A stretch of 64,000 bases of DNA from NCBI RefSeq assembly GCF_001677475.2, contig NZ_CP015229.1. The stretch is one strand, 5' to 3'. Below the pieces are notes generated by a model. It worked only from the letters and a program-made list of their open reading frames with translations, had not been told where the DNA came from and did no database searches. Below are positions 33,529-33,969 of this stretch, piece after piece. Numbering within the stretch: the first letter of the stretch is position 1; every line of letters starts with the position of its first letter. A program made the position numbers and the translations under genes. Source of the DNA: Escherichia coli (GTDB taxonomy: Bacteria; Pseudomonadota; Gammaproteobacteria; Enterobacterales; Enterobacteriaceae).

Positions 33529-33969
33529 GATACCCTTCTAACGATATCTACCTTCACCCCGTAAAAGATGGGTTTGGCAGCACACTTACCCTATATCTAC
33601 TCATTTTTACTGCAACAGGTTGAAATCTTAGCACTGTCAGAAAGCGCTGATGACTAAACAACCCTGGGCCGGGCGATGTAACCATCACACAGAATCCTGA
33701 TAGCGAAATATGGCGTGACTCGATACTTCACTCCGCAATGTATTCCTTGATGAATTCGCAGGCCCGTGATACACGGGACAGGTCGCTGAATGACGACAAT
33801 GTCCTGGAAATCAGCGAACCGCGTATCCGAAGTACATTTGAGCGACTGTACCAGAACATGAATGAGGCGTTTGGATTAGGTGATTATTAGCAGGGCTAAG
33901 CATTTTAGTATTATTATTTTCCGGTTGAGGGATATGGAGATATCGACAACAACCGGAAAAAGTTTACGT

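What the first reader, a model, noticed from the sequence alone, without database searches (positions are those of the whole stretch)
33529..33969. 441-bp non-coding scar between argW and cscB, with a 50-codon orphan frame and no recombinase
tRNA 3' ends are classic integration sites, yet the csc module has no integrase and I could not spot an argW 3'-end direct repeat by eye. The spacer contains a 50-codon frame (33733-33885, MYSLMNSQARDTRDRSLNDDNVLEISEPRIRSTFERLYQNMNEAFGLGDY*) with no obvious homologue to me, and a 7-bp stem / long-loop hairpin (about 33917-33958) just downstream of the cscB stop. It may be the remnant of an older island or prophage end that brought or preceded csc.
Basis: seen in the sequence. 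Interest (0 to 1): 0.45.

Follow-up and report, generated by a model that had tools for sequence, protein, structure and literature searches.

The report
Collapsed genomic island beside argW
The 441 bases between the arginine tRNA gene argW and the sucrose genes are the decayed stub of an old mobile island (its tRNA-side arm plus a piece of its last gene), joined to the tail of the sucrose module; this is ordinary genomic debris, not a working gene.

Summary
The spacer is 33529-33969. The 50-codon ORF is real but lies at 33738-33890, 5 nt from the stated position. There is an 11-bp hairpin, no recombinase, and no second copy of the argW 3' end.

The spacer has three parts:
- **33529-33592** aligns, in register from the att core, with the tRNA-side arm of a CP4-type, P4-like-integrase island. 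That island sits at argW in 276 E. coli genomes.
- **33593-33884** is a decayed internal piece (nt 110-458 of about 845) of a DUF4942 gene. It has a 55-nt deletion, a frameshift and stop codons. In 5 of 5 sampled islands DUF4942 is the last gene of the module antirestriction-RadC-YeeT-YeeU-CbtA-DUF5983-DUF957-DUF4942.
- **About 33902-33969** is the left end of the csc module, hairpin included. Citrobacter amalonaticus carries the same module in a different, non-tRNA context.

The relic evolves neutrally: variable sites by codon position are 8/10/10, against 8/2/33 in cscB. It occurs in about the same number of genomes as csc (2644 and 2648 of 5426) and is absent from K-12. It always lies on the csc side of attR when phages or islands occupy argW.

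Interest is low.

The parts
33454..33528 (+). argW, tRNA-Arg(CCU). Its last 15-21 nt (core CTGCAGGGGACACCA, 33514-33528) form the attachment core used by several integrative elements. In this window the site is unoccupied.
   Evidence: ARAGORN and Rfam tRNA. The core is repeated at attR in strain 1190, O26:H11, O157 and L007. There is no second copy in the window.
33529..33592 (+). Relic of the tRNA-side (attL) arm of an ancient CP4-type island integrated at argW. It shares about 61% identity (41 of 67 columns) with the arm of extant argW islands and starts at the same offset from the core.
   Evidence: Anchored global alignment to O26 L023:14869- and KS-NP019 L025:1498- scored 10 and 8, against shuffles at -7.7 +/- 3.5, with 0 of 5000 reaching it. 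The K-12 CPS-53 arm and K-12 attR flank controls scored -12. It was the best of 15,984 natural 64-nt windows. This stretch alone shows no significant similarity to DUF4942 (p = 0.175).
33593..33682 (+). DUF4942 pseudogene, segment 1. It corresponds to gene nt 110-199 (codons about 37-66), lies in a different frame from segment 2, and contains in-frame stop codons.
   Evidence: nhmmer with a profile of 5 full-length paralogues, E = 2.9e-12. DNA alignment z = 14.5. N-terminal protein HMM hit to residues 37-68, reached by 2 of 1000 shuffles.
33682..33884 (+). DUF4942 pseudogene, segment 2. It corresponds to gene nt 254-458 (codons about 85-152). A 55-nt deletion separates it from segment 1.
   Evidence: nhmmer E = 3e-40. 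tblastn gives 51% identity to residues 76-151 of a 281-aa DUF4942 protein. There is a Pfam PF13708 hit. It is 72-76% nt identical to paralogues in 1828 further genomes. Variable sites by codon position are 8/10/10.
33885..33901 (.). Junction between the island relic and the csc module, about 17 nt and unassigned. It supplies the last two codons and the stop of the 50-codon ORF.
   Evidence: DUF4942 homology ends at 33884. Homology to Citrobacter csc begins at 33902.
33902..33969 (-). Left end of the csc module, i.e. the cscB 3' flank with a conserved hairpin (arms 33917-33927 and 33950-33960). It is probably a cscB terminator or RNA-stabilising stem, though no U-tract follows.
   Evidence: Homologous to C. 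amalonaticus L008 and L012 out to 33902. The stems are invariant across 7 sequences, including Citrobacter and a 90%-identity Escherichia lineage. Folding energy is -17.3 kcal/mol, z = -3.3. The consensus scan did not call it a terminator.
33970..38896 (.). The csc sucrose module: cscB (33970-35217, -), cscK (35289-36203, -), cscA (36410-37852, +), cscR (37860-38855, -). It is shared as a block with C. amalonaticus.
   Evidence: ORFs. PGAP names come from the homologous locus. The block aligns to Citrobacter at 81-83% identity.
38897..39098 (.). Right junction, about 200 nt of unknown origin between the csc module and the dsdX remnant. It is specific to the csc haplotype.
   Evidence: It is absent from Citrobacter and from K-12. 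It is present in 2691 genomes and has no paralogues.
39099..39316 (+). Remnant of dsdX (its last 218 nt), where homology to K-12 resumes.
   Evidence: blastn to K-12. PGAP annotates 'DsdX, missing N-terminus' in homologous loci.

Best explanation
The spacer is a non-functional fossil of a CP4-type integrative island, joined to the 3' tail of the csc module.

Such islands carry a P4-like tyrosine integrase and a conserved distal module: antirestriction, RadC, YeeT, YeeU, CbtA, DUF5983, DUF957 and DUF4942. The proposed history is as follows.

1. An ancestor of csc-positive Escherichia carried one of these islands, inserted by its integrase into the 3' end of argW. The original attL junction survives as 33529-33592.
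2. A large internal deletion removed everything from the integrase gene to about nt 109 of the island's last gene, DUF4942.
3. The island's right end, its attR, dsdC and the first roughly 1120 nt of dsdX were replaced by a 5-kb csc block with the same ends as in Citrobacter amalonaticus. This left DUF4942 nt 110-458 (33593-33884) abutting the cscB terminal hairpin.

This history explains why there is no integrase and no direct repeat. The argW core stayed intact, so the site works today as an empty attB. In other strains P22-like prophages, IntS remnants and fresh CP4-type islands occupy it, always leaving the relic on the csc side.

What is shown: the anatomy, the homologies, the neutral evolution and the distribution. 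What is inferred: the order of events, the deletion mechanisms and the hairpin's role.
For: - **DUF4942 fragment.** Pfam, tblastn at 51% identity to residues 76-151, and nhmmer E = 3e-40 and 2.9e-12 all identify it.
- **Position of DUF4942 in islands.** It is the last gene of the conserved module in 5 of 5 sampled islands.
- **CP4-type islands use argW.** In O26:H11 a 26.7-kb island lies between exact cores, with its integrase next to the tRNA-side core and its distal module co-directional with argW. This is the same orientation as the relic. The arm plus integrase sits next to tRNA-Arg in 276 genomes.
- **Arm homology.** The first 64 nt align in register with that arm, with 0 of 5000 shuffles reaching the score. 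It ranks first among 15,984 natural windows, and the natural controls are negative.
- **Extent of the csc module.** It ends at about 33902 in Citrobacter, where it lies between a yjfF-like permease gene and MCP-fbp-mpl.
- **Neutral evolution.** Variable sites are 9.8%, split 8/10/10 by codon position, against 3.4% and 8/2/33 in cscB. There are indels, including an 18-nt deletion inside the ORF.
- **Distribution.** Counts track csc (2644 and 2648 of 5426). K-12 homology stops at 33528 and resumes at 39099.
- **Age.** A shorter, differently deleted form of the same relic sits between the attR core and the cscB hairpin in a 90%-identity Escherichia lineage.
Against: - No integrase fragment and no attR survive, so the island is reconstructed from two small pieces only.
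- The arm similarity is modest (61%) and rests on essentially one extant arm family with two alleles.
- The relic is only 72-76% nt identical to any full-length DUF4942 gene. No closer intact relative was found among 1.84 billion representative proteins, so its exact source lineage is unknown.
- The L007 version of the first 64 nt is not significantly similar to the arm on its own.
- Overlap between the spacer-positive and csc-positive genome sets was inferred from the counts and from every sampled locus, not from a full intersection.
Confidence: 0.8

Rival explanations
1. The DUF4942 fragment was not at argW beforehand. It travelled with csc as part of the imported DNA, either as donor flank or because csc was cargo at the distal end of the island that integrated.
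For: - The relic directly abuts the csc module, with a gap of only about 17 nt.
- The two occur in nearly equal numbers of genomes.
- About 200 nt of unexplained DNA lie at the right junction.
Against: - In C. amalonaticus the module ends at about 33902 and is followed by an MCP gene. E. coli still has ATACTAAAAT where Citrobacter has the MCP start ATGCCAAAAT, so donor-type flank ends before the relic.
- No att core lies to the right of cscR.
- The right-junction DNA matches no island end in E. coli.
Confidence: 0.15
2. The 50-codon ORF encodes a functional small protein, or the spacer is a regulatory RNA, retained by selection in csc-positive E. coli.
For: - An ATG-initiated ORF of 50-79 codons is present in most alleles, and PGAP annotates it as a CDS.
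Against: - There is no third-position bias (4/6/4 within the ORF), and one allele has an 18-nt deletion.
- Large deletions occur in L007, and ISEc46 replaces most of the spacer in an ETEC strain.
- The ORF covers only profile positions 19-62 of a 190-position domain.
- There is no Rfam match.
- Promoter-like sites are no more frequent than chance.
Confidence: 0.03
3. The spacer is a prophage end, from a P22-like or lambdoid phage that uses argW.
For: - Four phage-database records contain the whole spacer at 96.6-97.3% identity.
- argW is a known phage integration site (PMC10132054).
Against: - Those records run past the excisionase gene into cscB, cscK and cscA, so they include host DNA.
- In strain 1190 the prophage attR core directly precedes spacer base 1, which places the spacer outside the prophage.
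- The K-12 CPS-53 arm is unrelated to the spacer.
Confidence: 0.02

Closest known systems
CP4-type cryptic islands of E. coli (CP4-44, CP4-57 and CP4-6 of K-12; PAIs with a P4-like integrase and the YeeU/CbtA toxin-antitoxin module)
   Same: - The relic contains the family's terminal gene (DUF4942) in the orientation expected for an island integrated at a tRNA 3' end.
- It also retains an attL arm like that of extant argW members.
   Different: - Only about 64 nt of the arm and about 290 nt of one gene remain.
- There is no integrase, no toxin-antitoxin pair and no attR.
- The fragment is 72-76% identical to living paralogues, which are 85-92% identical to one another.
pawZ, the 15-nt argW pseudo-3'-end at the CPS-53 attR in K-12
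   Same: Both are leftovers of site-specific integration at the argW core.
   Different: - pawZ is the duplicated core at an occupied site.
- This window has no duplicated core. The leftover here is island-internal DNA to the right of an intact, empty core.
The csc regulon at the argW-dsdCXA hot spot (EC3132, E. coli W, O157). It was described by Jahreis et al. 2002 and Moritz & Welch 2006, as cited in PMC11251922 and PMC3032704.
   Same: The gene order is cscB-cscK-cscA-cscR between argW and a truncated dsdX, and csc and dsdC are mutually exclusive.
   Different: The held papers describe the locus and its variability. They do not mention the DUF4942 or arm relic.

Membership tests
tRNA-integrated genomic island (applied to the csc segment 33529-39098 as a whole) | Lies immediately after the 3' end of a tRNA gene | tested here: met
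   K-12 homology stops at 33528, the last base of argW.
tRNA-integrated genomic island (applied to the csc segment 33529-39098 as a whole) | Encodes an integrase or recombinase | tested here: not met
   Only cscB, cscK, cscA and cscR are present.
tRNA-integrated genomic island (applied to the csc segment 33529-39098 as a whole) | Flanked by direct repeats of the tRNA 3' end (attL and attR) | tested here: not met
   There is no second copy of the last 17 or 25 nt of argW, even with up to 3 mismatches.
tRNA-integrated genomic island (applied to the csc segment 33529-39098 as a whole) | Variable presence among strains | tested here: met
   Present in 2644-2648 of 5426 complete genomes.
DUF4942 (PF13708) protein | Pfam match above the gathering score | tested here: met
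   25.3 bits against a cut-off of 25 for the 50-aa ORF. The 60-aa allele scores 35.6 bits.
DUF4942 (PF13708) protein | Complete domain within an intact reading frame of about 281 aa | tested here: not met
   Only profile positions 8-62 of 190 are covered. The fragment has stop codons, a frameshift and a 55-nt deletion, and is truncated at codon 152 or so.
DUF4942 (PF13708) protein | Purifying selection on the coding sequence | tested here: not met
   Variable sites by codon position are 8/10/10, against 8/2/33 in cscB.
CP4-type (P4-like integrase) integrative island | P4-like tyrosine integrase next to the tRNA | tested here: not met
   Absent from the window. It is present in the extant argW islands of O26 and KS-NP019.
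CP4-type (P4-like integrase) integrative island | Conserved distal module ending in DUF4942 | tested here: inconclusive
   Only a DUF4942 fragment remains. The full module was seen in 5 of 5 sampled islands elsewhere.
CP4-type (P4-like integrase) integrative island | Element-specific arm sequence directly after the att core | tested here: met
   61% identity, in register, with 0 of 5000 shuffles reaching the score. It ranks first among 15,984 natural windows.
Intrinsic (Rho-independent) terminator (applied to the hairpin) | Stable stem directly after the stop codon | tested here: met
   An 11-bp stem starts 9 nt after the cscB stop. Folding energy is -17.3 kcal/mol.
Intrinsic (Rho-independent) terminator (applied to the hairpin) | U-tract immediately after the stem | tested here: not met
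   The tail is UAAUAAUACUAAAAU, and the scan found 0 terminator-like sites.
Intrinsic (Rho-independent) terminator (applied to the hairpin) | Termination of cscB transcripts at this point | not testable with these tools
   This needs 3'-end mapping such as Term-seq.

The most novel reading that the evidence does not exclude
The chromosomal sucrose regulon of E. coli did not simply land next to argW. It was delivered there as cargo at the distal end of a CP4-type integrative island, and was then locked in place when deletions removed the integrase and attR. On this reading the spacer is the last trace of the vehicle that gave roughly half of all E. coli their csc genes at the cost of D-serine use.
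Probability: 0.2. Interest if true: 0.4.

Novelty: new member of a known kind. Interest (0 to 1): 0.2.

Why it matters
- **Annotation.** It explains a short 'DUF4942 domain-containing protein' CDS that PGAP annotates beside cscB in csc-positive E. coli. The CDS is a pseudogene fragment, not a gene.
- **Structure of the hot spot.** It gives a concrete left boundary for the csc module, at about 33902. It also shows that the csc haplotype sits on the wreck of an older integrative island while argW still works as an empty landing site for phages, including Stx phages, and for islands.
- **Practical use.** The result helps in drawing prophage and island boundaries at argW. Four phage-database records overshoot into csc.
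- **Limits.** It reveals no new mechanism. Decayed island stubs at tRNA hot spots are expected.

Tried and rejected
- **Word-indexed protein search.** It returned only short fragments of the same locus. The exhaustive phmmer search found no full-length relative above about 58% identity.
- **K-12 flank.** An apparent match between the K-12 attR flank (TTTATCCCTAAAACC) and the L007 and window flanks was tested and is at chance level, with p between 0.2 and 0.97. K-12's flank is therefore unrelated.
- **Direct fusion of DUF4942 to the tRNA.** I considered that the first 64 nt were further DUF4942 sequence (codons 16-36) fused directly to the tRNA. The similarity is not significant (p = 0.175; no nhmmer hit), and the attL-arm match explains the stretch better.
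- **Secondary att site.** I looked by eye for a pseudo-att site in DUF4942 codons 12-18 (GGGCATACGGAC against GGGGACACCA). The resemblance is too weak, and I dropped it.
- **Right junction, 38897-39098.** A search for paralogues in E. coli found none.
- **Right end of the KS-NP019 island.** I tried to reach it to obtain an argW-type DUF4942 gene. The island is longer than 50 kb and composite, so I stopped.
- **Hairpin covariation.** The stems are invariant, so the test is uninformative.
- **Primary papers.** Jahreis 2002 and Moritz & Welch 2006 are not held in the library.

Full report
**Observation**

ARAGORN places argW, tRNA-Arg(CCU), at 33454-33528. The cscB ORF ends at 33970 on the minus strand.

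The 50-codon ORF has exactly the quoted translation but lies at 33738-33890, 5 nt from the stated coordinates.

The hairpin has 11-bp arms at 33917-33927 and 33950-33960. Its folding energy is -17.3 kcal/mol, z = -3.3 against shuffles.

Between 33529 and 39098 the only genes are cscB, cscK, cscA and cscR. The last 17 or 25 nt of argW do not recur anywhere in the window, even with 3 mismatches.

**Where the locus sits**

Against K-12, homology stops at 33528, the last base of argW. It resumes at 39099, inside dsdX. The 5.57-kb segment replaces CPS-53, a 95-nt flank, dsdC and most of dsdX. This is the known csc/dsd alternative at the argW hot spot (PMC11251922 and PMC3032704).

The spacer occurs in 2644 of 5426 complete E. 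coli genomes and cscB in 2648. Every sampled copy lies next to cscB. The K-12 flank after its attR core is unrelated to the spacer.

No complete E. coli genome is more than 97.8% identical to the window over the fadL-argW flank or more than 97.7% over the spacer. The window comes from a somewhat divergent lineage.

**The ORF is a gene fragment**

- **Pfam.** The ORF matches DUF4942 (PF13708) at E = 1.4e-5, covering profile positions 19-62 of 190. A 60-aa allele gives E = 9.8e-9.
- **DNA search.** A sensitive search finds spacer positions 144-345 at 72-76% identity in full-length DUF4942 genes, up to 8 places per genome, in 1828 further genomes.
- **tblastn.** A 281-aa DUF4942 protein aligns residues 76-151 at 51% identity.
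- **nhmmer.** A profile of five paralogue genes resolves two collinear pieces. Window 33593-33682 matches gene nt 110-199 (E = 2.9e-12), and 33682-33884 matches nt 254-458 (E = 3e-40). A 55-nt deletion and a frame change separate them. Searches support the upstream piece independently.
- **No intact close relative.** The paralogues are 85-92% identical to one another, so the relic is an old or foreign branch. No closer intact relative exists among 1.84 billion representative proteins.

**What DUF4942 marks**

In 5 of 5 sampled E. coli loci the full-length gene is the last gene of a conserved string: antirestriction, RadC/JAB, DUF987 (YeeT), YeeU, CbtA, DUF5983, DUF957, DUF4942. This is the distal module of CP4-type islands, and it lies next to the island boundary. 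The family is uncharacterised, and only four papers in the library mention it. It matches PHROGs of unknown function and part of a phage DNA-methyltransferase family.

**Such islands use argW**

In O26:H11 strain 11368 a 26.7-kb island lies between two exact copies of CTGCAGGGGACACCA. It carries a P4-like integrase (a pseudogene here) beside the tRNA-side core, followed by GTPase, Ag43, DUF932, antirestriction, JAB, DUF987 and YeeU. Spacer base 1 follows its right-hand core directly. The island's left arm plus integrase sits next to tRNA-Arg in 276 genomes. The module runs in the same direction as argW, as does the relic.

**The first 64 nt**

On its own, 33529-33592 shows no significant similarity to DUF4942. 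It does align with the first 64 nt of the extant argW island's tRNA-side arm, starting at the same distance from the core, with 41 of 67 columns identical.

| Comparison with spacer 33529-33592 | Anchored global score |
|---|---|
| O26 island arm | 10 |
| KS-NP019 island arm | 8 |
| Shuffled spacer (5000) | -7.7 +/- 3.5; none reached the real score |
| K-12 CPS-53 arm (control) | -12 |
| K-12 attR flank (control) | -12 |

Against the O26 arm, the real segment is the single best of 15,984 natural 64-nt windows of the 64-kb sequence. The junction with argW is therefore best read as an original attL junction.

**The last 70 nt belong to csc**

Citrobacter amalonaticus carries the csc block at 81-83% identity. 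The alignment covers window 33902-38896 only. There the block lies between a yjfF-like ABC permease gene and an MCP gene followed by fbp and mpl, with no tRNA nearby.

The hairpin stems are identical in E. coli, in a 90%-identity Escherichia lineage and in Citrobacter, while the loop varies. There is no covariation and no U-tract. A terminator or stabiliser role is therefore an inference.

E. coli has ATACTAAAAT where Citrobacter has the MCP start ATGCCAAAAT. This suggests that donor-type flank ends just before the relic.

**The relic is not under selection**

Across six alleles the relic has 9.8% variable sites, spread 8/10/10 over codon positions (4/6/4 inside the ORF). cscB has 3.4%, spread 8/2/33. 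One allele has an 18-nt deletion inside the ORF.

An ETEC strain has replaced spacer positions 1-362 with an IntS remnant and ISEc46. The 90%-identity lineage (L007) keeps a shorter version with other deletions. One of these joins the gene's AATTTTCCGGAA to the hairpin's TTTTCCGG, a microhomology deletion of a window-like ancestor.

Rfam finds nothing but the tRNA.

**Not a prophage end**

The four phage records that contain the spacer also contain cscB, cscK and cscA beyond their excisionase gene, so they overshoot into host DNA. PMC11251922 also notes csc in four coliphage records.

In strain 1190 and in O157 the attR core of a P22-like or IntS element directly precedes spacer base 1. In csc strains the spacer is therefore the bacterial side of attB.

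**Model**

An ancestral CP4-type island integrated at argW. An internal deletion then removed the integrase gene through DUF4942 nt 109. The csc block replaced the island's right end, attR, dsdC and the 5' part of dsdX.

The anatomy and the homologies are shown. The order of events and their mechanisms are inferred. Whether the island carried csc in or was already there is undecided, and I give the cargo version about 0.2.

**Verdict**

This is a decayed stub of a known kind of mobile element at a known hot spot. It is useful for annotation and boundary-calling but not surprising. Interest is 0.2.

Noticed in passing
window 38897-39098: About 200 nt lie between the end of the Citrobacter-shared csc block and the dsdX remnant. 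They are specific to the csc haplotype (2691 genomes), have no paralogues in E. coli, and vary a lot (88-98% identity). Their origin is unknown.
   Followed up: partly
window 36303-36324 and 36367-36388: The cscK-cscA intergenic region holds two copies of an inverted repeat around GTTAACGTTAAC. They correspond to the putative CscR operators attributed to Jahreis 2002 in PMC11251922.
   Followed up: partly
window 29926-31218: A 430-aa ORF rich in Asp/Ile repeats (DIDIDIDIDI) sits between fadL and mlaA. The adjacent 31000-31399 stretch is only 32% G+C. Other E. coli annotate the ORF as a hypothetical protein. It looks horizontally acquired.
   Followed up: no
L002 (ON470589.1) and three sister phage records: These INPHARED 'complete phage genomes' include host cscA, cscK, cscB and the spacer beyond the excisionase gene. 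Their prophage boundaries are over-extended.
   Followed up: yes
L007:9240-9513 ('E. coli' SCPM-O-B-8794, about 90% identity to the window): This lineage has the same dsdX junction and a shorter relic. Its 3' deletion joins the TTTTCCGG of DUF4942 codons NFPE to the TTTTCCGG of the hairpin arm, a textbook microhomology deletion.
   Followed up: yes
L008 and L012 (Citrobacter amalonaticus): The csc block is inserted between a ytfRT/yjfF-like sugar ABC transporter operon and an MCP gene followed by fbp and mpl, a core-genome site with no tRNA. At 81-83% nt identity, this is not a recent copy of the E. coli locus.
   Followed up: partly
L024 (O157 strain 180-PT54), 8889-49001: An Stx1a prophage lies on the 5' side of argW, with its integrase gene 196 nt from the tRNA 5' end. 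An IntS P22-like remnant occupies the 3' side. The attR core next to the spacer has a 1-nt deletion (CAGGGACACCA).
   Followed up: no
L003:3957-5960 (ETEC L7_E1373): An IntS N-terminal remnant plus ISEc46 (IS200/IS605 with TnpB) replaces spacer positions 1-362. Only the hairpin-bearing 79 nt next to cscB remain.
   Followed up: partly
L026 (E. coli KS-NP019), argW island longer than 50 kb: The same argW arm and integrase head a composite island carrying SIR2/DUF262 and BREX-fragment defence genes, an inositol catabolism cluster and the yersiniabactin HPI.
   Followed up: no
L005:8759-9778 (E. coli EC5): Here the DUF4942 end of a CP4-44-like island abuts the 3' end of tRNA-Ile on the opposite strand. 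This is the reverse of the usual geometry, in which the integrase lies next to the tRNA.
   Followed up: no
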